64,000 nt of DNA, taken from NCBI GenBank assembly GCA_027346125.1, contig DAIEST010000174.1:1167-65166 (forward strand), given 5' to 3'. The notes below the pieces were generated by a model that saw only the letters and a list, made by a program, of their open reading frames with translations, was not told the DNA's origin and searched no databases. Shown here one piece after another: positions 20,782 to 37,338 of this stretch; the stretch's first letter is position 1; each line of letters begins with the position of its first letter. This DNA is from Leptospirillum sp. Its GTDB lineage: Bacteria; Nitrospirota; Leptospirillia; Leptospirillales; Leptospirillaceae. Position numbers and translations under genes: made by a program.

Positions 20782-21420
20782 GTGAAAATCACCGAAACGT
20801 TCCGGTCCATCCAGGGGGAATCCCTTTATTCGGGATGGCCCTGTTTTTTTATCCGGACGACCGGATGCCCCTTGCGTTGCCGATGGTGCGATACAGCCTA
20901 CTCATTTTACGGGGGAGAAGACCGGGCGGTCGACGCTCTGGTCGAAGAAGCGGTTTCGTCCGGAACATTCCTTGTCGAGATCACCGGGGGAGAACCTTTT
21001 GTCCAGCCGGAGCTTCCGGAACTGGTCCAGAAACTACTTGATCGGGGAAAGACTGTTCTGATCGAAACATCCGGAGGATTCCCGGTTCCTGACGGACTGA
21101 ACCGGGACTGCCGCCTGATCGTCGACCTGAAGCCTCCCGGATCAGGAATGGATGCGTGGATGAAGCCCGAACACTTCTCGGATCTCGGACAAAGAGACGA
21201 AATCAAGGCCGTTGTGGCCGACCGAGGGGATTTTGACTGGTCGGTCCAAAAACTGGAAGAGTGGGGGGTGTGGGGTCGAGTGCCGGTAACCTTCTCTCCG
21301 GTATACGGAGAATGCGATCCTCGCGATCTGGCGAGGTGGGTTCTGGATTCCGGTTTCCCGATCCGGGTTCAGGTCCAGCTGCACAAGATTCTTTTCGATC
21401 CCTTGTTGAAGGGGGTCTGA
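20782..21420 (+). CDS. queE: 7-carboxy-7-deazaguanine synthase (radical SAM)
   Basis: 212 aa. FRSIQGES...G.PCFFIRTTGCPLRCRWCDT, next to queC. Confidence 0.88.
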   Translation: MKITETFRSIQGESLYSGWPCFFIRTTGCPLRCRWCDTAYSFYGGEDRAVDALVEEAVSSGTFLVEITGGEPFVQPELPELVQKLLDRGKTVLIETSGGFPVPDGLNRDCRLIVDLKPPGSGMDAWMKPEHFSDLGQRDEIKAVVADRGDFDWSVQKLEEWGVWGRVPVTFSPVYGECDPRDLARWVLDSGFPIRVQVQLHKILFDPLLKGV

Positions 21421-21422
21421 TC

Positions 21423-22145
21423 ATGCTTGTCAGGGATCCGGACAACATCGAGAAAAAGATCGGTGGAAAAGGTTCCGTCGTGCTGGTCAGCGGGGGGATG
21501 GACAGCGCCGTGACAGGGGCCATGGCCGTTCGGGAAAGCCCGAGGGTAGCCTTTCTCCATGTTCGTTACGGAGCGCGGGCGCAGGAAAGTGAAGAAAGGG
21601 CGTTTCGAAACCTCTCCCTCCATTGGGGCGTGGATCGGAAGCGGGTCGTCGACCTCACTTCTTTAGGCTCTCTGGGAGGGTCCGCCCTGACCGACCGGTC
21701 CATCGACGTTCCTCCGGCCAACCTGGATGCCGAAGGAATTCCCTCCACTTACGTTCCGTTCCGAAATGCCCATTTTCTGTCCATCGCGACCAGCTGGTGT
21801 GAAATTCTCAGGTTCGACCGGATCTGGATCGGGGCGGTGGAAGAAGACAGTTCGGGATATCCGGATTGCCGTCGCATATTTTACGACGCTTTCGAAGAAG
21901 CCATCCGTTTGGGAACACGTCCAGGAGCGAACATCCGGATCGTGACTCCTGTCATCCATCTGAACAAGGGGGAAATCGTCGCGGAAGGGATACGCCTCGG
22001 GGTTCCATTTGAGCACACCTGGTCCTGTTACAGGGAAGGAAACAGAGCGTGCGGGCGGTGTGACAGTTGCGCTCTTCGCCTGAGAGGCTTCTCTTTGGCT
22101 GGTGTTCGGGATCCCCTGGAATACGACCCATCCGGCAATCCCTAG
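21423..22145 (+). CDS. queC: 7-cyano-7-deazaguanine synthase
   Basis: ORF 21261..22145 trimmed to ATG 21423. SGGMDS PP-loop and the C-terminal Zn cluster C..C..C..C (WSCY...CGRCDSCALR). Confidence 0.9.
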   Translation: MLVRDPDNIEKKIGGKGSVVLVSGGMDSAVTGAMAVRESPRVAFLHVRYGARAQESEERAFRNLSLHWGVDRKRVVDLTSLGSLGGSALTDRSIDVPPANLDAEGIPSTYVPFRNAHFLSIATSWCEILRFDRIWIGAVEEDSSGYPDCRRIFYDAFEEAIRLGTRPGANIRIVTPVIHLNKGEIVAEGIRLGVPFEHTWSCYREGNRACGRCDSCALRLRGFSLAGVRDPLEYDPSGNP

Positions 22146-23864: not shown

Positions 23865-23924
23865 ACGATCCCGAAGAGGCTTGCACCCCGGGCATGGATG
23901 TCTGGTATAATGAAAGGGTCCGGG

Positions 23925-24416
23925 ATGGCCGGCAAGGATCAGTCTGAGCCCCGTGAAAGGGCGACTGCGACAAATCGGAAGGCTTTTCACCAGTATGAAG
24001 TGCTGGAACGATTTGAGGCGGGAATCGCTCTTTTCGGGACGGAAGTCAAGGCTTTGAGGGACGGACGGGTGAATCTCGGGGATGCCTTCGTCCGGATCGA
24101 AAACGAAGAGGCTTGGCTTTGGCAGCTTCACATCGGTCCTTACCGCGCGGCGTTCCGGGACAACCACGAGCCCATGAGGAAAAGGAGACTCCTCTTGCAC
24201 AAGAAGGAGATTCTCCGGATCATGGGTCTCGTCCGTCAGAAAGGGTTGACGGTCGTTCCCCTGAGGATTTATTCCGGACATCGGGGCATGTACAAAGTCG
24301 AAATCGCCCTGGTTCGCGGAAAGACACAGGGAGACAAGAGGGAAGCCATTCGGGAACGGGAGGCTAACCGCGAAATCCAGCGGGTCTTTCGTTCCCGGCA
24401 GAAAGTTGGCCGTTAA
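23925..24416 (+). CDS. smpB: SsrA-binding protein SmpB
   Basis: ORF 23898..24416 trimmed to ATG 23925. NRKA.H.YEVLE.FEAGI.L.GTEVK, and the gene lies immediately upstream of tmRNA. Confidence 0.9.
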   Translation: MAGKDQSEPRERATATNRKAFHQYEVLERFEAGIALFGTEVKALRDGRVNLGDAFVRIENEEAWLWQLHIGPYRAAFRDNHEPMRKRRLLLHKKEILRIMGLVRQKGLTVVPLRIYSGHRGMYKVEIALVRGKTQGDKREAIREREANREIQRVFRSRQKVGR

Positions 24417-24463: not shown

Positions 24464-24822
24464 GGGGGCGATCGGGTTCGACGGGGATGAGAAAGCAAGG
24501 ACAGCATGCCGAGGTCCCAGGTCCTCGTAAAACCTTTGGGAAAAAGACAACTGCCAACGAAGAGCTGGCTCTCGCTGCTTAATCTAAACAATTAAGTGAG
24601 CGCGCCTGTCGGATTTTGCGCCTGCCCGGATCCGAAGGCGTGGAGAAGGCAGGATCGCCGAAGGAACATGTCTGGGTTCCTGAAGCTAAACCCTTACAGA
24701 CTCGCTGGTGACAGGTATGCCTCTCTTTCCTGTCATTGGTCAGACTTAAACAGAGGCTAAGCATGTAGCGGTTCTTGGCGGACTGTTTCCGGACGCGGGT
24801 TCAATTCCCGCCGCCTCCACCA
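24464..24822 (+). ncRNA. ssrA: tmRNA (transfer-messenger RNA)
   Basis: 5' GGGGGCG pairs with 3' CGCCTCC-ACCA, including the G3:U alanine identity pair. T-arm GCGGGTTCAATTCCCGC. Internal tag ORF GCC AAC GAA GAG CTG GCT CTC GCT GCT TAA (24553-24582) encodes ANEELALAA. Confidence 0.93.
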
Positions 24823-24855: not shown

Positions 24856-26004
24856 TTACCCATTTTCTTCTGTCACCGTTTTGTCACCAAATGAAGCGTT
24901 TTTGCTCCCGAACTGTGATCCGATTTCATTGGCCCGGTTTCCGACAGCCGGGTCAATGGAAGGGATCCATCTTCCGTATCTTTTCCGAATCATTCCCCAA
25001 TCGGCATGCCCCATTTGTTGCGCCACCCACATCGGGTTCTCTCCTGCGGAAAGCAGAAGGCTCGCATAGGTGTGTCGCGTCTGGTAGGGGTTTCGATAGG
25101 CCACGCCAGCCTTTCTCAGGACGCTGGCCCAATGGTGATTGATCTTGTTGTCCCCACTCCAGGGCTGTCTGGTAAGAGGATTGGTGAAGATGCGTCCTCC
25201 TGAAAGAAGACTGTGTTCTTTCTGGGCCTCCAGGGCCTTGCGGGCCTGATCGAGAATCTTCACCTCCCGCTTGCCTGCCTTTGTTTTTGTTTCCTTCACA
25301 TGGCCCCGGATGAAGGCTCTCCGGACGCAGATCACATTGCGGCCCCAATCGATATCCCCCCACTCCAGTCCGATCAGTTCAGACGTTCTCAGTCCGCTCC
25401 AAAAAGAAAACTGGATGAGGTTTTGCAGGGGTCCTTCGCAAGCATCCAGAATTTTCCGGATTTCCTCCAGAGAAAAAGGCTCCGGCTCGCTGGTGTCGAT
25501 CGAGAGACTCCGGATCCTGTCCATCGGATTTTTCTCGATAACTCCATCCTGGAAGGCGTCTCCGAGAACTCCCCGAAGGGGGGTCAGAATGTTGTTGATC
25601 CGTTTGTTCGAACATTGAAGGGTGGAGATGAAGCGCCGGATTTCCGTGGTGGTGACTTTATCCAGCGGCAATTCTCCGAAAAAGGGGATTAGGTGGTATT
25701 TCGAACAGGACCGGTAGTCCCGGAGGGTGGAAGTAGCCGTACTCTTTTCCATGTGGCCCAGCCAAGTTTCCATCGCTTCCCGGAAAGTCGGGATCCTGTT
25801 TTCCGGAATCGACTTGAAGTATTTGGACGGGTCAAAGGTCTGCTGGGCGATTTCAAGGAGGATGGTCCCCCGGAGCCGTTCGGCATATTTGAGGTTGGCC
25901 TTGGTGGGTTCAAGTTTCAGTGTTTTCTGGAAGCGTTGGCCATGCCAGTAGAAGCTGATCTGGATCCCGTTGCCGCGAACTCGAATTCCGCTCCCTCGAC
26001 CCAT
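24856..26004 (-). CDS. int: Tyrosine recombinase / phage integrase
   Basis: 382 aa. N-terminal arm-binding-type start (IRVRGNGIQISFYWHGQRF). Catalytic R (GLRTSELIGL), H..R (QTRHTYAS) and ...RYGRWI Tyr region. Confidence 0.93.
   Translation of the reverse strand: MGRGSGIRVRGNGIQISFYWHGQRFQKTLKLEPTKANLKYAERLRGTILLEIAQQTFDPSKYFKSIPENRIPTFREAMETWLGHMEKSTATSTLRDYRSCSKYHLIPFFGELPLDKVTTTEIRRFISTLQCSNKRINNILTPLRGVLGDAFQDGVIEKNPMDRIRSLSIDTSEPEPFSLEEIRKILDACEGPLQNLIQFSFWSGLRTSELIGLEWGDIDWGRNVICVRRAFIRGHVKETKTKAGKREVKILDQARKALEAQKEHSLLSGGRIFTNPLTRQPWSGDNKINHHWASVLRKAGVAYRNPYQTRHTYASLLLSAGENPMWVAQQMGHADWGMIRKRYGRWIPSIDPAVGNRANEIGSQFGSKNASFGDKTVTEENG
24871..24889 (+). promoter_or_regulatory. Candidate integrase arm-type binding sites (tandem TGTCACC-N5-TGTCACC), P' arm
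   Basis: TGTCACCGTTTTGTCACCA lies 46 bp inside attL. A near-identical 19-mer (1 mismatch) lies 82 bp inside attR at 63428-63446 in the same orientation. Confidence 0.4.
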
Positions 26005-29528: not shown

Positions 29529-29571
29529 AATATAGCAAATTGCTATTAACAAATCAATAGCAAATTAATAT
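29529..29571 (-). promoter_or_regulatory. PL-like promoter with OL-like operators
   Basis: The minus strand reads TTGATT (29557-29552), 17 nt, TATATT (29534-29529). A perfect 15-bp palindrome ATAGCAAATTGCTAT (29532-29546) overlaps the -10 and spacer. A half-conserved copy ATAGCAAATTAATAT (29557-29571) abuts the -35. Confidence 0.55.
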
Positions 29572-29672: not shown

Positions 29673-30068
29673 GTGTCTGGAATGAGACTCTTACTTGTTC
29701 CTATTTTTCTCGTACTTTTTTCAGGATGTGCCACAACGGCCAATTACAACAAATCGGTGACCGACTGGCTGGGAAAACCGGAGAAGGATCTCTTGGCAGC
29801 ATGGGGAGTGCCGACAGGAACCTTTTCGGGGAAAAAATTTCATGTGGACGAATATCTCCGGGAAGGTACCCCTACCTTTGGAGAAGCTTTTTTGGCAGGA
29901 ATGGCTTCACAAAGTCATACGACTGGCTCTTTTGATGCTCAGGGAAATTTTCAATCGACGACCCAACCGGGAGTGATTTTACACTTCTCGTGTAGAACGG
30001 ACTTCTTTGTTGATGATCAAGACGTTATCCAACGGGTCACTTTCCATGGAGAAGGATGCCATCGGTAA
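29673..30068 (+). CDS. Lipoprotein (moron-type)
   Basis: 131 aa, GTG start after GGAGGA. Signal peptide MRLLLVPIFLVLFSGC with a lipobox-like FSGC. Confidence 0.6.
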   Translation: MSGMRLLLVPIFLVLFSGCATTANYNKSVTDWLGKPEKDLLAAWGVPTGTFSGKKFHVDEYLREGTPTFGEAFLAGMASQSHTTGSFDAQGNFQSTTQPGVILHFSCRTDFFVDDQDVIQRVTFHGEGCHR

Positions 30069-30161
30069 TTGGCACCAGAATTTGTGCATAGACGAAAGTT
30101 TAAAGGGAAATGAGGACAAGGGGGAGGGGAAAATGATTCAAAATGATTTGTAAAATTATAA

Positions 30162-30234
30162 TCCAGGATAGTTGACAAAAATATCCTGGGTATTTATTAT
30201 TTGAATTATTATCGACAAATAAATATTCCAGGAT
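30162..30234 (+). promoter_or_regulatory. Strong sigma70-type promoter with flanking inverted repeat (operator) for the DGQHR gene
   Basis: TTGACA (30172-30177), 17 nt, TATTAT (30195-30200). CCAGGATA (30163-30170) and TATCCTGG (30182-30189) form a perfect 8-bp inverted repeat bracketing the -35. A third TCCAGGAT copy lies at 30227-30234. Confidence 0.55.
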
Positions 30235-30258
30235 TAAAAATTAAATGGAGGATGTAAA

Positions 30259-31722
30259 ATGGACGACTTTGAAGAAAGACTACCAAGACCTTTGACGGGG
30301 CTCAGCAACCTGGATGATTTGATGGGAGATGGAGACACTTCAGGGAAGCCTTTTAAAGTATTTATTGGTCATAACTTAGGAAATAGAATTTTTGTTTTTA
30401 CCATTCCAATGTATGAGTTTTTTAGCCTGTCTGAGGTTGCAAATGAAAGGGGGGATGATGATGACGATAGCCTGGTTGCCCAGAGACCGTTGGATGAAAA
30501 TCATGCTCATAGTTTAGCTGTTTATATATTGAAAGGTTTAGTTTCTTCTGCCATTCAATGGAAGGAAAGAGGAAAAAAGCCAAAACTTTCTATCTTAGAA
30601 ACCTTCAGAGACCGCCTAGGGAAACAATCTTACCTTTCCCTTCAACCGATTGTAGTCAACATCCGAGATTGTGGACCCGAAGGAAGAAGCATTGTAGGTG
30701 AAAGAATGGTTGTTAATGGGGTTGAAACGGCTGCGTATAAGATCATTCTTCAGCAGAAAGATATTCTCTGGGTAGTTGATGGACAGCACCGAAGGTATGG
30801 GATGCAAAAAGTGTTTGAGTTTTTGGACGAAGTTACGCGTAGTAGAAAATATCCCAAAAAAAAGAGCCTTTATCCACATCTTGGAGAAATTGAACTGACC
30901 TCGGAGGAAATTCAAGGATGGCAGGTGTGCATGGAAGTGGCGCGGTCGTTTTGTACTGTAACTATTGAGGGCCACCTTGGTCTTGGGATCGAGGAAGAAA
31001 GACAGTTATTCTATGATCTCAATAGTCTGGGCAAAAAGGTTCAAGCAGCTTTAGCGCTTCAATTTGATAGTTCCAATCCGGTTAATCAATACATTAAAGA
31101 AGTATTGATTGATGATGGCGACATAGGTTTAGAAATAATCGACAAAGACAAGATCGACTGGGATGATGATAAGGGAGAGATGACGAGGAAGGATCTTGTC
31201 GCAATTAATGCCATTCTTTTTTTAAACAAAACCAATATTCGACAGGCAAAACCCCTAGAAGTTGAGGAAAAAGAAGAGATAGCAACAAGGTTTTGGAAGA
31301 CCATCATCCAGATTCCAGGATTTGGGAAGTCAGGGGCTAAAGCTACTACTGTCGCTGGTCAACCTGTGGTTCTCAAAGCTTTGGCCAAGTTGACATATCA
31401 GTTTGGCTTTTCTCGATCCGCTGATCCAGAAATACTTGAGAAATTCCTGAATGAAATTCTCACGATTGATTTCTCTCACTCCAACCCCATGTGGAGATAC
31501 TACGATCTGACTGAATCTGAGCGACAGCAGTTTAACCTTTCAAACCTGAGCAGCTATCTGCCTTCTGAGACGGAAGGAGCCAACAGGGATCTTGGAAAGT
31601 ATGATAAAAATGCAGGTGTGATGAGATTTGGAGCGAAACACAATGATATCTCTCCAATTATTGGAGACATGATCCGCTGGAAGCTTGGGTTACCGAACAG
31701 AAACGAAGAAAAAGAATCTTAA
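30259..31722 (+). CDS. DGQHR-domain protein (DndB/DpdB-like, ParB/Srx fold)
   Basis: 487 aa. QRPLDENHAHSLAVYI followed by ILWVVDGQHRRYGMQ (the DGQHR motif). GGAGG SD 8 nt upstream. Confidence 0.82.
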   Translation: MDDFEERLPRPLTGLSNLDDLMGDGDTSGKPFKVFIGHNLGNRIFVFTIPMYEFFSLSEVANERGDDDDDSLVAQRPLDENHAHSLAVYILKGLVSSAIQWKERGKKPKLSILETFRDRLGKQSYLSLQPIVVNIRDCGPEGRSIVGERMVVNGVETAAYKIILQQKDILWVVDGQHRRYGMQKVFEFLDEVTRSRKYPKKKSLYPHLGEIELTSEEIQGWQVCMEVARSFCTVTIEGHLGLGIEEERQLFYDLNSLGKKVQAALALQFDSSNPVNQYIKEVLIDDGDIGLEIIDKDKIDWDDDKGEMTRKDLVAINAILFLNKTNIRQAKPLEVEEKEEIATRFWKTIIQIPGFGKSGAKATTVAGQPVVLKALAKLTYQFGFSRSADPEILEKFLNEILTIDFSHSNPMWRYYDLTESERQQFNLSNLSSYLPSETEGANRDLGKYDKNAGVMRFGAKHNDISPIIGDMIRWKLGLPNRNEEKES

Positions 31723-31753
31723 AACTTTCCTTAAAAACGTTAGAAAAATGTGG

Positions 31754-31789
31754 CACGCATCGGGTTTTAAATCCCGGTGCGTGTTTTTT
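31754..31789. terminator. Shared hairpin terminator between convergent genes
   Basis: CACGCATCGGG-ttttaaat-CCCGGTGCGTG (11-bp stem with one G:U), then TTTTTT on the plus strand. There is a weaker T-run on the minus strand. Confidence 0.65.
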
Positions 31790-31798
31790 AGTGATACT

Positions 31799-32512
31799 TT
31801 AAACATTAACAGGCATCTCATCCCATGTTCGGCCGAGAAGTAATCTCCCCGTCTTCTTCTTTTGAACTCCTCCCCATTGCTTGAAGAAAAATGGAACTCT
31901 GGATTCCTGGCATTGCTCTAAGATTTCGAGAACCCACTCTTCTTTCATGGGTCTCGAGCCAGGCCCGGATTCTCCTCCAACAATCACCCAATCAATATCG
32001 CTGAGGTCAAGGTTTGGAATCGGCCCCAAAAGGGGTTCAATCGACAGGAACTTGATCTTAGCCCTCGTTTTGCGAAGGTCATTCACCCTGGAAAGATAAT
32101 CCCTATTTTCGATACTTACACCCATCCAAATGTTTTCGGTCCAGTTGAGTTCTGAGCTTATTGTGGCAAGCCTATCGGCCCTCTTTGTCAGAATCTGGAA
32201 GGTGTGCCAGTGGGCCTGATTCATTATTTGAAAAGTGTTCTTTATGAATTCGTCAGGGATTTCTTGAAGAAAGAGATCGCTCATAGAATTCACGAAAACG
32301 ACTTGAGGTTTTTTCCAAGAAAGGGGAAGGGTAAGGGAATCAGGGTGAAGGGTCGGAGCGAAACCATTACGATATTTGGCAACACCCATTTCCTTAAGAC
32401 GTGCGGCCATTCTTTCAGCATAGCAGTTTTTGCATCCTGGACTGATCTTGGTGCATCCAGTAACGGGGTTCCAGGTAGAGTTTGTCCATTCGATAGCAGA
32501 ATCAGTAGACAT
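31799..32512 (-). CDS. DUF5131 / phage Gp37-Gp68 family three-Cys-motif protein
   Basis: 237 aa. [27 protein letters not shown] (C-x6-C-x2-C), ...FVNSMSDLF..., ...IVGGESG...[15 protein letters not shown] upstream. Confidence 0.85.
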
Positions 32513-32530
32513 GACATCTCCTCCTAGAAG

Positions 32531-33622
32531 TCAACAGAAATCGACCAAAGTATTTTCCGAAAACGAATTTTTTCTTCGCGTTTTTCCGTCCGATGTGGTC
32601 GGTCTCACAAAAATTTTATTCTCCTCTTCGGCTATCTTCAAGGCTTTGATCATATGCTTTCGAAGAAAAATTGTCTCATCTTCCACATATTGTTGAATGG
32701 TTCTAGAAGGGACACAAGTACATCCACCAAATTTTTGTAAGATATCGGATTGCAGACTTCTGATCTTTTGTTCAAGGTCGAAATCTCGAAAGATCGACTG
32801 TTTTCTATGGGAAGCATCGGAAAAAGAAAAGTCTCCATTTTCGTCGATTCTCCACATGGCCTCTTTCATCTTTATGTGACCTAATCTGTGGTTGCTGGCA
32901 AAAAAAAGAAAAAATTGTGTACGATCTTGTTTGTTTTTCATCTCAAAAGGAAGAACAAATTTGGCTACACCTCTTAAACGGTCTTCATACATATTTCTCA
33001 AAGAAATTACTCGATTTTCAGAATGAATGATCGAATGAGTATCGTCAGATCCCAATAATGCATAAATATGAGAACGAATTCCATCTTCGGGATGTTCAAG
33101 CCATCGATTGATGGAGTCAACCATGAAGTTAATGAAAACTTCACATCTTTCAAAAGAAAGGAGTCTTTGAATGAGGCTGAAAGGAACATCCTTGAATCCG
33201 AAAGGGTCTATAAAGGCAAATATAGGGGACGGTGTGAAACTATTTCTTTCGAGATAATCCAAAATTGAAGATAGAATATTGGCAAAGCTTTCATTTTTGA
33301 TCGATATTTCAAAGGAGGGCGGAAATTTTAATTCAGCGATCTCATTCTTGAGATATTGGAATCTTTCTTTATTTTCTTCGACGAATTGGAATAAAATTTT
33401 CGACGAGATACCGGATTTAATTGCGATATCCAGTGCAATCAAGGGAGAGCCGGGTTCGCCATGGAGATATCTTCCAGGCCCCCCAAATCCATCAATAAAC
33501 CCAACCTTCAGGTTGTTCCTTCCTAAGATCTGAAACCAGGCCTTCAGGTATTCAGAGAGAATGGCATGTTTTGCTTTGGTGTGAGGCTCTATCTCCCATA
33601 AAGGAGGGGAAGGAGTGGGCAT
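32531..33622 (-). CDS. tcmP: Three-Cys-motif partner protein TcmP-like
   Basis: ORF 32531..33667 trimmed to ATG 33622, 6 nt after AAGGAG. LWEIEPHTKAKHAILSEYLKAW and FIDGFGGPGRY. The stop is 18 nt before the DUF5131 start. Confidence 0.78.
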   Translation of the reverse strand: MPTPSPPLWEIEPHTKAKHAILSEYLKAWFQILGRNNLKVGFIDGFGGPGRYLHGEPGSPLIALDIAIKSGISSKILFQFVEENKERFQYLKNEIAELKFPPSFEISIKNESFANILSSILDYLERNSFTPSPIFAFIDPFGFKDVPFSLIQRLLSFERCEVFINFMVDSINRWLEHPEDGIRSHIYALLGSDDTHSIIHSENRVISLRNMYEDRLRGVAKFVLPFEMKNKQDRTQFFLFFASNHRLGHIKMKEAMWRIDENGDFSFSDASHRKQSIFRDFDLEQKIRSLQSDILQKFGGCTCVPSRTIQQYVEDETIFLRKHMIKALKIAEEENKIFVRPTTSDGKTRRKNSFSENTLVDFC

Positions 33623-33673
33623 AGAGAACTCCTTTCGATGGATTGATTCCATACCAAAATCGATCATGGATTT

Positions 33674-33772
33674 TCATGCGATCCAAACCAGTGCTGCATG
33701 TTCGAAGCCCGCTTGTTCAAGTCCCAAAGGCTGCCCACCGGCTCCCGTACAGATTTCAAGTGAAGAGAACAT
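33674..33772 (-). pseudogene. 5' remnant of a DNA (cytosine-5) methyltransferase gene
   Basis: MFSSLEICTGAGGQPLGLEQAGFEHAALV matches C5-MTase motif I (F-x-G-x-G-G ... GLEQAGF). The frame stops after 32 codons with no continuation in other frames. Confidence 0.5.
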
Positions 33773-33818
33773 TGTTTCTTCAGTATTAAAAATATAATAA
33801 ATATTATTAATTAAGACA

Positions 33819-34475
33819 TTAAAATCCGTAAGGGGCAGCGTATATCCGAATACCAATTGCAGATTGATATTCGTTCCGTATATTTATAAATGGAATCTTT
33901 TGAAGACTTTGATTGTAAGGCCATGGGTCTCTAATGAAAAGGTACTCAATATAAGGTATCCCCCCCTTCATCTTATAAACGGCGTTATAAACGGCGCCAG
34001 TAATCACTACTGCATGTCCTATCGTTGAGTTTGCCGGTTTCAATCCCAAGATAACAGGAACATTATTTTGTAAATCAATAAGAACTTGGCGCCAGGATGG
34101 CTCTTGATATGAATGGATTAAGATCGGTTTTCTATCATTGTTCCACCGCCATTTATTTAGAACAAATGCTATTTGGTTTGGAAAGCCAGGCAAATTTGCT
34201 AGGGTTCCAAATGTTTCGTAGACAATCTGAGATTGTTTAATAGGGATATGTAAAAGATTTAAGGAAACTTGAATAGAAGCTGCCCAACACCAATTCGATT
34301 CGAGTTGGCGTCCAAGATCAGATGGATGAGCCCAATAATTTACATAATCAGAAGTGAAACCAACAAAATATTCATTGTAGCTTACAGGCTTAATGATTGC
34401 CCAAGCATTCTTTGGGAAAAAGGAAAGAGTGGAGAAAAGGAGAATTATAAGAAGGGTCCGAATAACTTGTTGCAT
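33819..34475 (-). CDS. Secreted papain-like cysteine peptidase
   Basis: 218 aa. Signal peptide ending AWA. Catalytic-type Cys in SNWCWAASIQ and His in IGHAVVITG, followed by IRDPWP. Confidence 0.65.
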   Translation of the reverse strand: MQQVIRTLLIILLFSTLSFFPKNAWAIIKPVSYNEYFVGFTSDYVNYWAHPSDLGRQLESNWCWAASIQVSLNLLHIPIKQSQIVYETFGTLANLPGFPNQIAFVLNKWRWNNDRKPILIHSYQEPSWRQVLIDLQNNVPVILGLKPANSTIGHAVVITGAVYNAVYKMKGGIPYIEYLFIRDPWPYNQSLQKIPFINIRNEYQSAIGIRIYAAPYGF

Positions 34476-34725
34476 TAAAGCCTCCTTTTTGATGGGAACT
34501 TAACTTCAATTCCTCCCGGGTCTCAGCATCGGCTGCATCGATCCATCTGTCGCTCCGGTAGCATACCCCAGGATCCTCGCGATCCAGTATTTCCTTTAGA
34601 GGGATGGAAGCGGGTGGACCATCTCGGTGAGCTTCTCCGCAAGATCCTCCCTGGAGAACCGGTTTTGGGGCGAACGGGATCCGTCATTAGGTCGACCAAT
34701 TTCCGAAAGGAAAATTCGCTTGGGG

Positions 34726-35406
34726 TCACTTTTTCTGTTTTGGAAGAAGTGTTATGTCCCAAATATTTCTAAAAAGTCCATCAATATGTTCAAAAAGATC
34801 TGGTTTGATAGGGGCGCCCATCGGATCAAGAATGAAATGGATTCCTTCTCTACGAGCAAGCTTAGCCGCCGGAACAAAATCGCTATCCCCAGAGATCAGA
34901 ATAATCTGGTCGACAAGTTTTTTGAGAGTTAGAGAAGCAATATCCAGGCCGATCTTCATATCGACCCCTTTTTGGCGAAAATCCAAAACCACATCGTCTT
35001 CTGTTAGTTGATCGAATGTAATTTTATGACTGAAAAGTTCTTTCAGCTTTTGGGATTTAATAGTCCATTGAGGGTTTTCTCCATCAAGCGATCCTCGTCT
35101 GATGGCAAGATTAACGCTATTCAAGAGATGTTGGTGAAATTGGGTGCGAAAAATGTAAAGTTCACTTTTTGAAAGATCTATGGATTGCTTGTTAATGGGG
35201 TTATGAAATTTTTTATTGAGGGGAGGGCAATCGTAATAAAGAATTCGATAGATATCTTTAGGATTTTCGTGATTGACATATTTGGTAAGCAGAGAGTCGC
35301 ATCCTCGGACTAAAATAGAGGCTGTCTGCTCGGGGGTAAGAGGACCACAGATTTTCCGGATTCTTTTAAGGAAGAATGCCCCATCCACAAGAATTGCGGC
35401 GCGCAT
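34726..35406 (-). CDS. NYN-domain (LabA-like PIN-fold) nuclease
   Basis: 226 aa from the ATG at 35406 (GGAG 7 nt upstream). AAILVDGAFF, QKGVDMKIGLDI and ILISGDSDFVPAAKLAR are NYN hallmarks. Confidence 0.78.
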   Translation of the reverse strand: MRAAILVDGAFFLKRIRKICGPLTPEQTASILVRGCDSLLTKYVNHENPKDIYRILYYDCPPLNKKFHNPINKQSIDLSKSELYIFRTQFHQHLLNSVNLAIRRGSLDGENPQWTIKSQKLKELFSHKITFDQLTEDDVVLDFRQKGVDMKIGLDIASLTLKKLVDQIILISGDSDFVPAAKLARREGIHFILDPMGAPIKPDLFEHIDGLFRNIWDITLLPKQKK

Positions 35407-35426
35407 CACAAATCTCCGGACATAAT

Positions 35427-35483
35427 AAAAAAACCTCCGGTTTCGGCCTCTCCCGGATGTTGGGAGAACTTACTAACGGAGGT
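35427..35483 (-). terminator. Possible terminator/attenuator in the NYN leader
   Basis: The minus strand reads ACCTCCG...(inner CTCCC-aacatcc-GGGAG hairpin)...CGGAGGT followed by TTTTTTT, ending about 20 nt before the NYN start. Confidence 0.3.
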
Positions 35484-35647
35484 GAATGGAATTAGGGTAT
35501 CTCGATTGATGGAAGTTGTCAAGGTTCCTCCTCCTCATGGTTCCAGTCTTTCGTTCTACCAGTTTGGCGGCTTAGAATTCTCCGTTATGGTGGGGTGCGT
35601 CTTCTAGTTTAGTCACTAAGAAAAACGTGCTCCGCTTTTACCCTTTT

Positions 35648-35887
35648 TTACTTTCCTACTTTTTCTTGATCCACCCAATGATCAATCTCTTTTTTGATCT
35701 CGTCATCATAAAAGCCGTTCTCAATATTTGATTTCACAGCAATGCCGGCAGAAAGACGGTCATTGACCAGGAGCAGACAGGATTCGAAAATACGACAAAA
35801 CGTGTAGCTATTCATGGTCATCGGTTTGATGCCGGACAATTCAAGAACAGAATTGAGACGATTTAACAAAGTAACAATGATTTCCAA
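35648..35887 (-). CDS. Hypothetical protein
   Basis: 79-aa ORF in AT-rich DNA, on the same strand as cI. Confidence 0.4.
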   Translation of the reverse strand: MEIIVTLLNRLNSVLELSGIKPMTMNSYTFCRIFESCLLLVNDRLSAGIAVKSNIENGFYDDEIKKEIDHWVDQEKVGK

Positions 35888-35943
35888 TGGCCCCCCTTAT
35901 TTCGCGCTTTGGTGAGGAGGAATTTCGATTTTCCCCCACGCTG

Positions 35944-36249
35944 CTATTGCTTCAGCCTCGGGTCGTCCGATGCGATGCAAAGGGCATCCATACTTCGGAC
36001 CGTCTCAGTGGTAGCCAATTTTTTTGCACCCGGAGACAATCTTGGTGAGTGTTCCTCTCTTTGGTTAAATTCGACGTTTTTTTCTCCTTGATTCTCACAC
36101 TCTTTGGCAGTATCGCCGCTCCCTACCTGGCTCCATTGGGCTATTGGGGTCTTAGTGAAAGTGAGAATATCGCTTGCAGGGGGCTCCATCAAATACCATC
36201 CGCATAAAAGTATTCCCGAGAAAATTTCAAGAAATCTTCTTTTCGACAT
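35944..36249 (-). CDS. Small exported or membrane-anchored protein
   Basis: 101 aa. N-terminal hydrophobic segment FLEIFSGILLCGWYLM, immediately downstream of cI. Confidence 0.45.
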   Translation of the reverse strand: MSKRRFLEIFSGILLCGWYLMEPPASDILTFTKTPIAQWSQVGSGDTAKECENQGEKNVEFNQREEHSPRLSPGAKKLATTETVRSMDALCIASDDPRLKQ

Positions 36250-36308: not shown

Positions 36309-37034
36309 CTAAACCTCCCCTTCTCTCTGAACAACTTTCCCCACGATATTCAGATGTGCTGCTTCCTCCGGTGAATAGTATTCGTCCGGGTAACTAGCCT
36401 TATCGGGGTTGTCGGAAGAAATCTTTATTCTTCCGTCTGCCGTCCGGTGGACCCTCTTGGCCCGGAGGCCTTCGCCCGGGAAAAGTAGCACATACACTTT
36501 CCCGGACTGGAATTCCTTGTCGGCCATATTCACCAGAAGCACATCTCCGTCGCCGATCTTGGGTTCCATGGAATGCCCCGAGGCCTCGACGACGCAGAGA
36601 TCTTCCTCGCGCCAGCCGTTCTTTTTGATCCAGTCTTTCCGGAATGCATGGGTCTTGGAGATCTCGACGTGATCTCCGTTGTGATATCCACCTCCGGCCG
36701 AGATCTTGGCCTCGTACCGGGGGATGAAGGCGTATTTTTCGGTGGGGAAGGGGTTCTCTCCATGGATTTCCAAGGTGGGAGTCTTTGAATCACTCTTCGA
36801 AGCATCGGCTGGGTTGAATTGGATTTGAGGAAAATCCATCCATCCATTTTCTAGAGAAAAAGCCTCTTCAATTTTCCTTGCTGTTTTGTATCCCATCGGC
36901 CTTCTTCGCGAGACCAACTGATACATATATGCAGGGGAAACACCTACTCTTCTCCCCATTTCGGCTTGGCTATTACCACACCGTGTTTCAAGTAATTGCA
37001 TTAAGTTAGAATATCTTGTCTCCTTGATGTCCAT
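36309..37034 (-). CDS. cI: CI-like repressor (XRE HTH plus S24 LexA-like autopeptidase)
   Basis: ORF 36309..37169 trimmed to the ATG at 37034, because the longer form would overlap cro and the promoters. HTH NSQAEMGRRVGVSPAYMYQLVS. C-terminal SGHSMEP (Ser) and ...LRAKRV (Lys) of the S24 peptidase fold. Confidence 0.85.
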   Translation of the reverse strand: MDIKETRYSNLMQLLETRCGNSQAEMGRRVGVSPAYMYQLVSRRRPMGYKTARKIEEAFSLENGWMDFPQIQFNPADASKSDSKTPTLEIHGENPFPTEKYAFIPRYEAKISAGGGYHNGDHVEISKTHAFRKDWIKKNGWREEDLCVVEASGHSMEPKIGDGDVLLVNMADKEFQSGKVYVLLFPGEGLRAKRVHRTADGRIKISSDNPDKASYPDEYYSPEEAAHLNIVGKVVQREGEV

Positions 37035-37044
37035 CGGGGAATCG

Positions 37045-37112
37045 TAGCATCTTGCTAAATTTCTTGCATCTTCCTTTTTGCTATTGAAAACATAATAGCG
37101 TTTTGCTATATT
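37045..37112 (+). promoter_or_regulatory. OR-like operators and PR-like promoter
   Basis: TAGCAtctTGCTA (37045-37057) and TAGCGtttTGCTA (37096-37108). PR is TTGAAA (37084-37089), 17 nt, TATATT (37107-37112). 22 of 29 positions match the PL module by hand alignment. Confidence 0.55.
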
Positions 37113-37119
37113 CCCCTCC

Positions 37120-37338
37120 ATGAAACTCATAGAATACCTCCGAAAATTTGGGTCAAAAGAACTCGCCATAAAAGTAGGGACTTCTCGTGCCTACCTTTCT
37201 CAAATTGCCCATGCGCACCGTCAGGCTGGTCCTCAAATGGCACTCCGAATAGAAGAAGCCTCAGATGGATTGGTAACCGTATCCGAATTGCGACCAGATC
37301 TCTCTGCTCTTTTTGAGTCCGAGAAATCCGCCTCATGA
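37120..37338 (+). CDS. cro: Cro/YdaS-like HTH regulator
   Basis: 72 aa, divergent from cI. LAIKVGTSRAYLSQIAH......ALRIEEASDGLVTVSELRPDL matches the Cro/YdaS pattern. Confidence 0.75.
   Translation: MKLIEYLRKFGSKELAIKVGTSRAYLSQIAHAHRQAGPQMALRIEEASDGLVTVSELRPDLSALFESEKSAS

What the first reader, a model, noticed from the sequence alone, without database searches (positions are those of the whole stretch)
30259..33622. DGQHR protein convergent with a TcmP-DUF5131 pair: candidate undescribed DNA-modification or anti-phage module
**Seen in sequence.**
- 30259-31722 (+) carries VVDGQHRRYG, the DGQHR ParB/Srx-fold domain.
- 32531-33622 (-) has the TcmP pattern (EIEPHTKAKHAILSEYL). Its IDGFGGPG loop resembles SAM-methyltransferase motif I.
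- 31799-32512 (-) is a DUF5131/Gp37-Gp68 protein with [12 protein letters not shown]-x6-C-x2-CYA.
- The last two genes are 18 nt apart, and one hairpin terminator (31754-31789) separates the convergent units.

**Established.** TcmP and the three-Cys DUF5131 family are a recurrent gene pair. As far as I know their function has not been determined. The characterised DGQHR proteins (DndB in phosphorothioation, DpdB in 7-deazaguanine insertion) are partners or regulators of DNA-modification machineries.

**Inference.** The triad could write or control a DNA modification, or act as a modification-linked exclusion system carried by the prophage. I am not aware of a named defence system with this gene content.
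Basis: partly seen in the sequence, partly recalled or inferred. Interest (0 to 1): 0.85.

Follow-up and report, generated by a model that had tools for sequence, protein, structure and literature searches.

The report
Two unrelated accessory cassettes, not a triad
The three genes are real, but they are two independent gene cassettes sitting side by side in a variable spot of a prophage: a stand-alone DndB-like gene with its own control region, and a TcmP/DUF5131 pair already listed as an untested phage-defence candidate.

Summary
All three genes, their motifs, the 18-nt gap and the hairpin are present as described. In 250 independent loci (about 3 Mb), no DndB-family gene lies near a TcmP or DUF5131 gene: 0/80 DGQHR loci, 0/80 DUF5131 viral loci, 0/90 TcmP loci. 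TcmP and DUF5131 form a tight pair (64/67). PADLOC lists them as PDC-M30/M41, which are untested defence candidates. The closest relatives share only the two-gene block (window 31812-33606, about 75% nt identity), once at the same prophage hotspot, next to a NotI-like/D12 restriction-modification pair and without DGQHR. The DGQHR gene is monocistronic, with its own promoter and a bidirectional terminator. Its family carries a conserved upstream array of TCCWGGA boxes about 22 nt apart (258 CCWGG observed against 22 in shuffles), which I found in no paper. Recurrent neighbours of this family are Dcm/Vsr cassettes (15/80). The window holds a 32-codon dcm remnant just upstream of TcmP, which suggests a cassette swap. 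The TcmP model has a SAM-methyltransferase fold. DUF5131 looks radical-SAM-like. All of this lies in a low-GC island of an ssrA-integrated Leptospirillum prophage. Functions remain untested.

The parts
30000..36000 (.). Low-GC accessory island (40-42% GC against 55-60% around it) in the prophage immunity/early region, between the early-left recombination genes and the CI-like repressor
   Evidence: Composition profile. The same arrangement is seen on more than 24 contigs of the same prophage. A related prophage (L170) has different cargo at the same place.
30163..30232 (.). Three (A/T)TCCWGGAT boxes, with CCWGG starting at 30163, 30185 and 30228 (spacings 22 and 43 nt). They bracket and overlap the promoter-like site of the DGQHR gene. 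Probably an operator array.
   Evidence: Sequence. The same array is found family-wide: 258 CCWGG in the 200 nt upstream of 78 homologues, against 22 +/- 4.6 in shuffles and 0.51 per 200 nt elsewhere in the loci. The modal spacing is 22 nt. There are 141 phased pairs upstream of the gene and 50 in the remaining 1.2 Mb.
30172..30200 (+). Sigma-70-like promoter, TTGACA-17-TATTAT (11 of 12 matches), 59 nt before the DGQHR ATG
   Evidence: This is a consensus match only; transcription was not shown.
30259..31722 (+). Stand-alone DndB-family (DGQHR, ParB/Srx-fold) protein, 487 aa. The gene appears to be monocistronic.
   Evidence: Pfam DndB 6.9e-31. TIGR03187 63 bits. phrog_36010 9e-160. More than 1375 homologues. 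DGQHRR, ERQxFxDLN and the C-terminal RFGxxHND motif are invariant.
31752..31785 (.). Bidirectional intrinsic-terminator-like hairpin between the two convergent units
   Evidence: 13-bp stem, 8 G-C pairs, T run after it on the + strand and an A run before it.
31799..32512 (-). DUF5131 (Gp37/Gp68) three-Cys protein, radical-SAM-like; second gene of the pair
   Evidence: Pfam 5.8e-101. PADLOC PDC-M41B 6e-121 and PDC-M30B 3e-116. TIGR04471 'radical SAM mobile pair protein A' 2.8e-25, below its cutoff. C20, C27, C30 and GGESG are invariant. The model is barrel-like, and the best TM scores go to lipoyl synthase, spore photoproduct lyase and viperin.
32531..33622 (-). TcmP: N-terminal class I SAM-methyltransferase fold plus a C-terminal winged helix; first gene of the pair
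   Evidence: TIGR04474 1.3e-59. PADLOC PDC-M30A 1.4e-55. Pfam GMT-wHTH 7.9e-5 on residues 288-358, below the gathering score. AlphaFold2 pLDDT 85 and Foldseek matches. DGFxGPG and DPFGF are invariant.
33674..33769 (-). Remnant of a C5 cytosine methyltransferase gene (MFSSLEICTGAGGQPLGLEQAGFEHAALVWIA*). Only motif I is left. It lies directly upstream of TcmP on the same strand.
   Evidence: PADLOC DruM/MTase_II N-termini at 8e-9 to 5e-8. Sequence. Similarity of the pair to its relatives stops at 33606.
33819..34475 (-). Island neighbour: secreted C39-like/papain-like peptidase (signal-peptide-like N-terminus)
   Evidence: Pfam Peptidase_C39_2 1.5e-5 and Peptidase_C70 2.7e-4.
34726..35409 (-). 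Island neighbour: NYN-domain (LabA-like) protein
   Evidence: Pfam NYN 4.4e-9. phrog_5783 5e-79. PADLOC NYN 1.3e-5.
29673..30068 (+). Island-edge neighbour: small lipoprotein (lipobox LFSGC)
   Evidence: Translation. phrog_3716 2e-10.
36309..37169 (-). CI-like repressor (HTH plus S24 peptidase) bounding the island. It is on the same strand as NYN, C39, the dcm remnant, TcmP and DUF5131.
   Evidence: Pfam Peptidase_S24 2e-17 and HTH_3.

Best explanation
The window holds a variable cargo island in the immunity/early region of a Leptospirillum prophage integrated at ssrA. The three genes of the finding are two separate cassettes that abut there.

Cassette 1 is a self-contained, monocistronic DndB-family gene. 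It consists of an array of TCCWGGA boxes overlapping a promoter, the gene, and a bidirectional terminator. The protein is a ParB/Srx-fold DNA- and NTP-binding protein. It most likely represses its own promoter through the boxes, as DndB does at the dnd promoter. It acts alone as a conflict protein (nuclease, NTPase or DNA-state sensor). This step is inferred.

Cassette 2 is the two-gene TcmP-DUF5131 operon, PADLOC candidate PDC-M30. TcmP has a SAM-methyltransferase fold and a winged helix. I infer that it binds nucleic acid and SAM and presents a target to DUF5131, a radical-SAM-like three-Cys enzyme that modifies or damages it. The pair moves as a unit among restriction-modification and defence loci. 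Here it appears to have replaced the body of a dcm-led cassette and is probably expressed in the lysogen.

Shown: gene identities, pairing, modular boundaries, absence of co-occurrence, the box array, and the predicted folds. Inferred: every biochemical activity and any anti-phage role.
For: Absence of co-occurrence:
- 0/80 DGQHR genome loci (one genome per species, +/-10 kb, 1.24 Mb) hold TcmP or DUF5131, by tblastn and by HMM with filters off.
- 0/80 DUF5131 viral loci and 0/90 TcmP loci hold a DndB-family gene.

The pair is tight and mobile:
- DUF5131 is adjacent in 64/67 TcmP loci.
- Nucleotide similarity to L169, L170 and L171 covers only window 31808/31812/31865-33606, which is exactly the two genes.
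- In those relatives the pair follows a NotI-like endonuclease and a D12 methyltransferase, and no DGQHR gene is present. L170 is a related prophage with the pair at the same hotspot.
- Upstream neighbours elsewhere are varied restriction-modification and defence genes.
- PADLOC PDC-M30A/B and PDC-M41B hits.

DGQHR autonomy:
- Own promoter-like site and terminator.
- The gene is solitary in 21 lytic Pseudomonas phages and in chromosomal contexts.
- A family-specific CCWGG box array lies upstream of the gene: 258 observed against 22 expected, about 22-nt phasing, 141 phased pairs upstream against 50 in 1.2 Mb.
- In the island, the only phased pair is at the DGQHR promoter. None lies upstream of TcmP.

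Folds:
- TcmP.
- DUF5131, and its placement in the radical SAM superfamily by RadicalSAM.org (PMC9477430).
- DndB as an autoregulator: PMC4507180, cited from its abstract listing.
Against: - The genes are physically adjacent, share one terminator and have similar low GC. Co-acquisition or cooperation in trans in this one phage cannot be excluded.
- The surveys cover 250 loci biased to relatives of the window proteins, not all genomes.
- Two of 90 TcmP loci have another ParB/Srx-fold neighbour (GmrSD), so some loose affinity between such proteins and the pair in defence islands exists.
- The DUF5131 model is only moderately confident. The Cys-loop region has pLDDT below 50, and no PDB match reaches E<=1e-3.
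- The Cys spacing is C-x6-C-x2-C, not the canonical C-x3-C-x2-C.
- No transcript, binding or phenotype data exist for any part.
Confidence: 0.8

Rival explanations
1. DGQHR, TcmP and DUF5131 work together as one DNA-modification or exclusion module, with the DGQHR protein as partner or regulator of the pair, as DndB and DpdB are in their systems.
For: - Adjacency, convergent layout with one shared terminator, and similar low GC.
- Characterised DGQHR proteins do act with modification machineries (PMC10164549 for DpdB, from its abstract listing, and the description of DpdB; PMC4507180 for DndB, abstract listing).
- The same arrangement is seen on more than 24 contigs, but these are one and the same prophage.
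Against: - 0/250 independent loci show the combination.
- The nearest relatives of the pair lack DGQHR, even at the same prophage hotspot.
- DGQHR homologues are solitary in lytic phages.
- The DGQHR family's boxes do not occur upstream of TcmP.
- The score against the DndB equivalog is 19.9 bits against a cutoff of 328.
- I found no dnd or dpd partner among the window's ORFs.
Confidence: 0.05
2. The DGQHR protein's real functional partner is cytosine-5 methylation. It reads CCWGG sites, possibly according to their methylation state, and belongs with Dcm/Vsr-type cassettes. In this window it is the surviving flank of such a cassette, whose body was replaced by TcmP-DUF5131.
For: - Dcm lies within 10 kb in 15/80 loci, and Vsr in 10/80. 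Vsr is directly adjacent in several loci. The cassettes also carry McrB-like/DUF2357-PDDEXK_7 genes or HATPase_c_3/Z1/DUF4420 genes.
- The window has a dcm remnant 2 kb downstream in the same convergent orientation as in L013, L069 and L081.
- The family's operator-like boxes are centred on CCWGG, the Dcm/Vsr/EcoRII site (my knowledge), with z of about 50.
Against: - 60 of 80 loci have no m5C-linked gene nearby.
- The lytic-phage copies have neither boxes nor a Dcm neighbour.
- The specificity of the neighbouring Dcm enzymes is unknown.
- CCWGG may simply be the core of a protein operator with no link to methylation.
Confidence: 0.25
3. TcmP-DUF5131 is not a defence system. It is a function that benefits the mobile element itself: a SAM-dependent modification of the element's own DNA or RNA (anti-restriction), or a DNA repair activity of the spore-photoproduct-lyase type.
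For: - It lacks a detectable TcmP in 59/80 of the loci examined.
- It is about 70% identical across lineages, which is enzyme-like conservation.
- RadicalSAM.org places DUF5131 in megacluster 5 beside spore photoproduct lyase (PMC9477430).
- Spore photoproduct lyase is among the best structural matches.
Against: - With TcmP, the pair sits among restriction-modification, DarT/NADAR, Mrr and GmrSD genes in cellular genomes.
- The PDC candidates were derived from genes embedded in BREX, DISARM or type I R-M loci.
- Here the pair lies in the lysogen-expressed part of the prophage.
Confidence: 0.3

Closest known systems
PADLOC phage-defence candidates PDC-M30 and PDC-M41 (TcmP-like A subunit plus DUF5131 B subunit)
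   Same: Both window proteins hit the models over their full length: M30A 1.4e-55, M30B 3.3e-116, M41B 6.3e-121. They are adjacent and co-oriented.
   Different: The candidates are untested. No DGQHR gene is part of them. Here the pair is prophage-borne and follows a truncated dcm gene.
DndB, regulator of the dnd phosphorothioation operon
   Same: Same Pfam family (PF14072) and same DGQHR domain. A promoter-overlapping array of repeated sites suggests autoregulation, as described for DndB (PMC4507180, abstract listing).
   Different: The score against the DndB equivalog is 19.9 bits against a cutoff of 328. I found no dndCDE in the window. The protein is 487 aa with a conserved C-terminal extension. 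The operator core is CCWGG. The gene is solitary.
DpdB, ParB-like ATPase of the 7-deazaguanine Dpd system
   Same: A DGQHR/ParB-fold protein of a DNA-modification system (PMC10164549, abstract listing; described).
   Different: I found no DpdA/TGT gene among the window's ORFs. The only queuosine-pathway gene, QueC at 21261-22142, lies in host DNA outside the prophage and is followed by a leucyl aminopeptidase.
GmrSD/DUF262 type IV restriction enzymes
   Same: ParB/Srx fold with a DGQQR/DGQHR-type motif. They live in defence islands, and some act as single proteins (PMC4619093).
   Different: No HNH/DUF1524 nuclease domain was detected. The family is a different one.
Radical SAM enzymes that act on nucleic acids or nucleotides (spore photoproduct lyase, viperin)
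   Same: DUF5131 has three invariant Cys, a GGE-type motif and a barrel-like model. Its best TM scores (0.42-0.49) are to lipoyl synthase, spore photoproduct lyase and viperin. RadicalSAM.org lists it in the superfamily.
   Different: The Cys spacing is C-x6-C-x2-C. The protein is only 237 aa. No PDB match reaches E<=1e-3. Its activity is unknown.
Lysogen-expressed cargo next to the repressor gene (lambda rexAB type)
   Same: NYN, C39, the dcm remnant, TcmP and DUF5131 follow the CI-like gene on the same strand. No strong terminator precedes 31752-31785. This position is that of rexAB in lambda (my knowledge).
   Different: The gene content is unrelated to rexAB. Co-transcription was not shown.

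Membership tests
PADLOC PDC-M30 (candidate two-gene system) | A-subunit model hit | tested here: met
   PDLC04567 1.4e-55, residues 21-356 of 378 against model positions 6-365 of 381.
PADLOC PDC-M30 (candidate two-gene system) | B-subunit model hit, adjacent and co-oriented | tested here: met
   PDC-M30B 3.3e-116 and PDC-M41B 6.3e-121. The genes are 18 nt apart on the same strand.
PADLOC PDC-M30 (candidate two-gene system) | Protects against phage | not testable with these tools
   The candidates are described as untested. I found no paper reporting a test.
TcmP (TIGR04474) | Score above the curated cutoff | tested here: met
   202.3 bits against a cutoff of 53.
TcmP (TIGR04474) | Encoded next to a three-Cys DUF5131 partner | tested here: met
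   True in the window and in 64/67 related loci.
Class I SAM-dependent methyltransferase (TcmP N-terminal domain) | Rossmann-type methyltransferase fold | tested here: met
   Model pLDDT 85, pTM 0.83. 204 PDB matches at E<=1e-3, essentially all methyltransferases (HNMT, COMT-like, RlmJ, M.BseCI). Viral methyltransferases in BFVD also match.
Class I SAM-dependent methyltransferase (TcmP N-terminal domain) | Glycine-rich SAM-binding motif I | tested here: met
   D44 G45 F46 G48 P49 G50 are invariant in 40 sequences.
Class I SAM-dependent methyltransferase (TcmP N-terminal domain) | Methyl transfer or SAM binding | not testable with these tools
   Needs biochemistry. D139-P-F-G-F143 is invariant and resembles the (D/N/S)PP(Y/F) motif of amino-methyltransferases only loosely.
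DUF5131 (PF07505) | Score above the gathering threshold, with the three-Cys motif | tested here: met
   337.5 bits against 28.9. C20, C27 and C30 are invariant.
Radical SAM superfamily | Canonical C-x3-C-x2-C cluster motif | tested here: not met
   The spacing is C-x6-C-x2-C. Variant spacings do exist in the superfamily (my knowledge).
Radical SAM superfamily | Partial TIM-barrel fold and GGE-type SAM motif | tested here: inconclusive
   GGESG is invariant. The model is barrel-like, with TM 0.42-0.49 to lipoyl synthase, spore photoproduct lyase and viperin, but E>1e-3 and a low-confidence Cys loop. TIGR04471 gives 2.8e-25 but is below its cutoff. RadicalSAM.org lists DUF5131 in the superfamily.
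Radical SAM superfamily | [4Fe-4S] cluster and reductive SAM cleavage | not testable with these tools
   Needs reconstitution, EPR and a 5'-deoxyadenosine assay.
DGQHR domain / Pfam DndB family | Model score above cutoff and the DGQHR pentapeptide | tested here: met
   TIGR03187 63 bits against 58.85. PF14072 108 bits against 29.1. D174-R178 invariant.
DndB proper (TIGR03233 equivalog, Dnd system) | Equivalog score | tested here: not met
   19.9 bits against a cutoff of 328.
DndB proper (TIGR03233 equivalog, Dnd system) | Linked dndCDE genes | tested here: not met
   None among the window ORFs (which lists only the top 25 of 48 families) and none recurrent in the 80 loci.
DpdB (Dpd system) | Linked dpdA (TGT-family) gene | tested here: not met
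   I found no TGT-family gene. QueC at 21261-22142 lies in host DNA beyond the attachment site, next to a leucyl aminopeptidase.
Type II m5C restriction-modification system (dcm remnant) | Full-length C5 methyltransferase | tested here: not met
   Only 32 codons with motif I remain, then a stop.

The most novel reading that the evidence does not exclude
The stand-alone 487-aa DGQHR family has more than 1375 members, from Nitrospirota prophages to Bacillota chromosomes and lytic Pseudomonas phages. On this reading it is an undescribed, autoregulated single-gene conflict module. Its protein recognises phased TCCWGGA boxes and may read the C5-methylation state of CCWGG, which would explain its recurrent position beside Dcm/Vsr cassettes. 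Separately, TcmP-DUF5131 would be a true radical-SAM-based nucleic-acid-targeting defence pair that can take the place of the restriction half of a methyltransferase-led cassette.
Probability: 0.25. Interest if true: 0.7.

Novelty: new member of a known kind. Interest (0 to 1): 0.4.

Why it matters
As posed, the finding would have added a new three-gene DNA-modification or defence system. The evidence says there is no such system, which saves cloning the wrong construct.

Three things remain useful.
- It gives clean natural boundaries for the TcmP-DUF5131 cassette (about 31790-33690). This is a widespread pair of a methyltransferase-fold protein and a radical-SAM-like protein, and I found no published function for it.
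- It documents cassette exchange at one prophage hotspot: NotI/D12/TcmP/DUF5131 in a relative, against dcm remnant/TcmP/DUF5131 plus DGQHR here.
- It yields a testable lead: a conserved about-22-nt-phased CCWGG box array upstream of a large solitary DndB-like family. This gives a probable DNA ligand for a protein class whose ligands are mostly unknown.

Tried and rejected
- **PDB sequence search.** Sequence searches of all three proteins against the PDB gave nothing usable.
- **Literature.** Searches for DUF5131, TcmP, PDC-M30/M41, PF07505/Gp37Gp68, DGQHR, DndB-like and CCWGG+DndB found no functional study of the pair or of the solitary DGQHR family.
- **GMT-wHTH name.** I could not establish what 'GMT' stands for in Pfam GMT-wHTH. 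The Gamma-Mobile-Trio lead gave nothing I could connect.
- **Phage DNA search.** A megablast of the island against phage records found nothing.
- **DUF5131 and methyltransferases in phages.** I considered that DUF5131 generally pairs with DNA methyltransferases in phages. Clustering placed an N6_N4 methyltransferase in 15 and a Dcm in 6 of 80 viral loci. However, the gene immediately upstream is a methyltransferase in only about 2 of 78 loci, so I dropped this as a rule.
- **Flanking repeats.** A search for repeats flanking the TcmP-DUF5131 block, as a sign of site-specific insertion, found nothing convincing.
- **Dpd-like link through QueC.** QueC is a host gene outside the prophage, and I found no DpdA.
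- **HEPN domain.** I considered a C-terminal HEPN domain in the DGQHR protein, because R456-x4-H461 is invariant and Makarova et al. 2013 describe a HEPN domain in DndB. It stays a lead only.
- **DGQ[HQ]R-motif ORFs near the pair.** These turned out to be GmrSD or DUF6551 proteins, not DndB.

Full report
**Observation.**

They match their families far beyond chance.
- 30259-31722 (+): Pfam DndB 6.9e-31 and TIGR03187 DGQHR 63 bits, above the cutoff.
- 31799-32512 (-): DUF5131, 5.8e-101.
- 32531-33622 (-): TcmP, TIGR04474 1.3e-59.

The quoted motifs are all present. The two minus-strand genes are 18 nt apart. A 13-bp hairpin at 31752-31785, with a T run after it on the + strand and an A run before it, separates the convergent units. 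The TcmP start at 33622 is supported by an AAGGAG box and by the identical 363-aa product called on more than 24 contigs.

**Context.**

The window is host DNA up to a tmRNA gene (24464-24822). An integrase and a prophage follow: RecT-like and PD-(D/E)XK genes, a CI-like S24 repressor, RusA, terminase, a portal protein and a lysozyme. The closest named relatives of TcmP and DUF5131 are from Leptospirillum.

The three genes lie in a 40-42% GC island (30000-36000) within 55-60% GC DNA. The island sits between the early-left genes and the repressor. It also holds a small lipoprotein, a secreted C39-like peptidase, an NYN protein and a 32-codon remnant of a C5 cytosine methyltransferase.

**Is it a triad?**

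1. A profile of the 487-aa DGQHR subfamily retrieved 80 loci from a collection with one genome per species, each with up to 10 kb on either side (1.24 Mb in total). None encodes DUF5131 or TcmP. This holds by tblastn at 1e-5 and by HMM search with filters off at E<=1e-3; the best spurious E-values were 0.64 and 0.96.
2. Of 80 viral contigs with DUF5131 (1.07 Mb), none has a DndB-family gene.
3. Of 90 TcmP loci from metagenomes, viral contigs and near relatives (0.69 Mb), none has a DndB-family gene.

ORFs in these sets that carry a DGQ[HQ]R motif are GmrSD or DUF6551 proteins.

By contrast, TcmP and DUF5131 are adjacent in 64 of the 67 loci with room downstream.

**Direct evidence of modularity.**

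The closest relatives of the pair (69% and 80-83% protein identity) follow a NotI-like endonuclease and a D12 methyltransferase, and have no DGQHR gene.
- One is in an L. ferriphilum element that also carries TrbI and an rve integrase.
- One is in a related prophage, at the same hotspot between the S24 repressor and the RecT-like gene.

Nucleotide similarity between the window and these loci covers 31808/31812-33606 at about 74-75%. This is the two genes and nothing else. In the related prophage, the RecT-like gene and the region right of the repressor are also shared.

The DGQHR protein has 48-50% identical, full-length homologues in 21 lytic Pseudomonas phage records (M5.1 is classified as Otagovirus). 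In the two records I examined, the gene stands alone among small genes. It is also solitary in chromosomal contexts.

**The DGQHR cassette.**

The gene has a strong sigma-70-like site upstream, TTGACA-17-TATTAT at 30172-30200. It ends at the bidirectional hairpin.

Three (A/T)TCCWGGAT boxes bracket the promoter, with CCWGG starting at 30163, 30185 and 30228. This is a property of the whole family.
- In 78 genome loci, the 200 nt upstream of the homologue hold 258 CCWGG. The rest of the same loci hold 0.51 per 200 nt. One thousand shuffles gave 22 +/- 4.6, with a maximum of 38.
- Other G+C-containing NNWNN palindromes are depleted there.
- Successive boxes are 22 nt apart (93 cases), 21 nt (38) or 23 nt (17).
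- Phased pairs number 141 in the 290 nt around the gene start and 50 in the other 1.2 Mb. Many of those 50 lie just upstream of the counted zone.
- The two lytic-phage loci I examined have no boxes.

Within the island, the only phased pair is at the DGQHR promoter. None lies upstream of TcmP. This argues against the DGQHR protein regulating the pair.

By analogy with DndB, which regulates its own operon (PMC4507180, cited from its abstract listing), I infer autorepression through these boxes. Binding was not shown. I found no paper describing this array.

**Neighbours of the DGQHR family.**

The only recurrent neighbours are the following:
- C5 methyltransferases, 15/80 loci.
- Vsr, 10/80, all within the Dcm-positive loci.
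- Restriction genes that travel with them: McrB-like AAA plus DUF2357/PDDEXK_7, or HATPase_c_3/Z1/DUF4420.
- Resolvases, 11/80.

In several loci the layout is DGQHR(+) followed by a convergent Vsr ... Dcm(-) cassette. The window shows DGQHR(+) followed by DUF5131-TcmP-dcm remnant(-). Similarity of the pair to its relatives stops just inside the TcmP start.

The simplest history is that the pair replaced the body of a dcm-led cassette and kept its 5' end and perhaps its promoter. This is inference.

CCWGG is the Dcm/Vsr/EcoRII site (my knowledge). A link between the boxes and cytosine methylation is possible but untested. Sixty of the 80 loci have no m5C-linked gene nearby.

**What the pair may do.**

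TcmP:
- The model is confident (pLDDT 85, pTM 0.83).
- Residues up to about 270 form a class I SAM-methyltransferase fold. There are 204 PDB matches at E<=1e-3; the longest alignment is to the rRNA adenine-N6 methyltransferase RlmJ. Viral methyltransferases in BFVD also match.
- DGFxGPG and DPFGF are invariant.
- The C-terminus gives a weak match to a winged-helix family, below the gathering score.

DUF5131:
- It is about 70% identical across lineages. Three Cys residues, a fourth Cys and GGESG are invariant.
- It hits 'radical SAM mobile pair protein A' at 2.8e-25, below that model's cutoff.
- RadicalSAM.org places it in the radical SAM superfamily, in the megacluster that also holds spore photoproduct lyase (PMC9477430).
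- Its model is barrel-like. The best TM scores go to lipoyl synthase, spore photoproduct lyase and viperin, but no match reaches E<=1e-3 and the Cys loop is poorly modelled.

PADLOC holds the pair as PDC-M30/M41. The paper that introduced these candidates describes 145 untested systems found embedded in BREX, DISARM or type I R-M loci. The upstream neighbours I collected are indeed restriction-modification and defence genes: ResIII, N6_N4 and D12 methyltransferases, NotI, Mrr, DarT/NADAR and AbiEii-like genes.

My working model is that TcmP binds nucleic acid and SAM and presents a target to the radical-SAM-like partner. Whether the outcome is protective modification, damage to invaders or repair is open. 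I give defence about even odds.

**Comparison and verdict.**

The DGQHR protein is a member of the Pfam DndB/DGQHR family. It is not DndB (19.9 bits against a cutoff of 328; I found no dndCDE). It is not DpdB (I found no DpdA; QueC at 21261-22142 is a host gene outside the prophage). The pair is a member of a known but uncharacterised candidate system.

The finding is therefore two ordinary members of known kinds placed side by side, and the proposed triad is not supported.

Value remains in three things: the natural cassette boundaries, the documented cargo exchange at one prophage hotspot, and the conserved CCWGG box array of the solitary DGQHR family. The array appears to be undescribed and is directly testable.

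Noticed in passing
window 30163-30232; L003-L082, about 200 nt upstream of each DGQHR homologue: A conserved array of TCCWGGA boxes at about 22-nt phasing lies upstream of the solitary DGQHR family. There are 258 CCWGG against 22 expected, and 141 phased pairs upstream against 50 in 1.2 Mb. The two lytic-phage loci examined have none. I found it in no paper.
   Followed up: yes
window 33674-33769 (-): A 32-codon remnant of a C5 cytosine methyltransferase gene (motif I only, then a stop) lies directly upstream of TcmP. It is in the same reading frame as the extended TcmP ORF.
   Followed up: partly
L003, L005, L012, L013, L015, L026, L069, L075, L081 and others: The DGQHR subfamily sits next to Dcm-Vsr cassettes in 15/80 loci. 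These carry McrB-like/DUF2357-PDDEXK_7 or HATPase_c_3/Z1/DUF4420 genes. Resolvases are nearby in 11/80 loci.
   Followed up: partly
L001 (NC_073680 91741-93204), L002 and 19 other phage records: Lytic Pseudomonas phages of about 98 kb (M5.1 is classified as Otagovirus) encode a full-length homologue of the DGQHR protein at 48-50% identity. In the two records examined it lies among small genes, with no partner genes.
   Followed up: partly
window 31624-31641 (residues 456-461 of the DGQHR protein): An invariant RFGxxH(ND) motif near the C-terminus fits the R-x4-H pattern of HEPN RNases.
   Followed up: partly
window 24464-24822 and 24856-26004: A tmRNA gene (tag ANEELALAA) is immediately followed by a tyrosine integrase. 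The prophage is integrated at ssrA. SmpB lies just upstream (23898-24413).
   Followed up: no
window 29532-29571: Two copies of the palindrome ATAGCAAATTGCTAT lie 25 nt apart. They overlap divergent promoter-like hexamers upstream of the lipoprotein gene, so they may be an operator.
   Followed up: no
window 33819-34475 (-) and 34726-35409 (-): A secreted C39/papain-like peptidase and an NYN-domain protein (phrog_5783) share the island and the strand with the repressor. They may also be lysogen-expressed cargo.
   Followed up: no
L170 4977-8637 and 12496-12783: A related prophage carries NotI-like, D12 methyltransferase, TcmP and DUF5131 genes at the same hotspot. Elsewhere it has a Tad2-like gene (a family of anti-Thoeris proteins; my knowledge).
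   Followed up: partly
literature: PMC12445080: In Sinorhizobium meliloti, a TcmP gene (SMa2243) is listed directly after the Hna defence gene (SMa2245). Both are upregulated about two-fold in the nolR+ strain.
   Followed up: no
window 21261-22142 (+): A QueC (preQ0 pathway) gene lies 8 kb from the DGQHR gene, but in host DNA outside the prophage, next to a leucyl aminopeptidase. I found no DpdA.
   Followed up: yes
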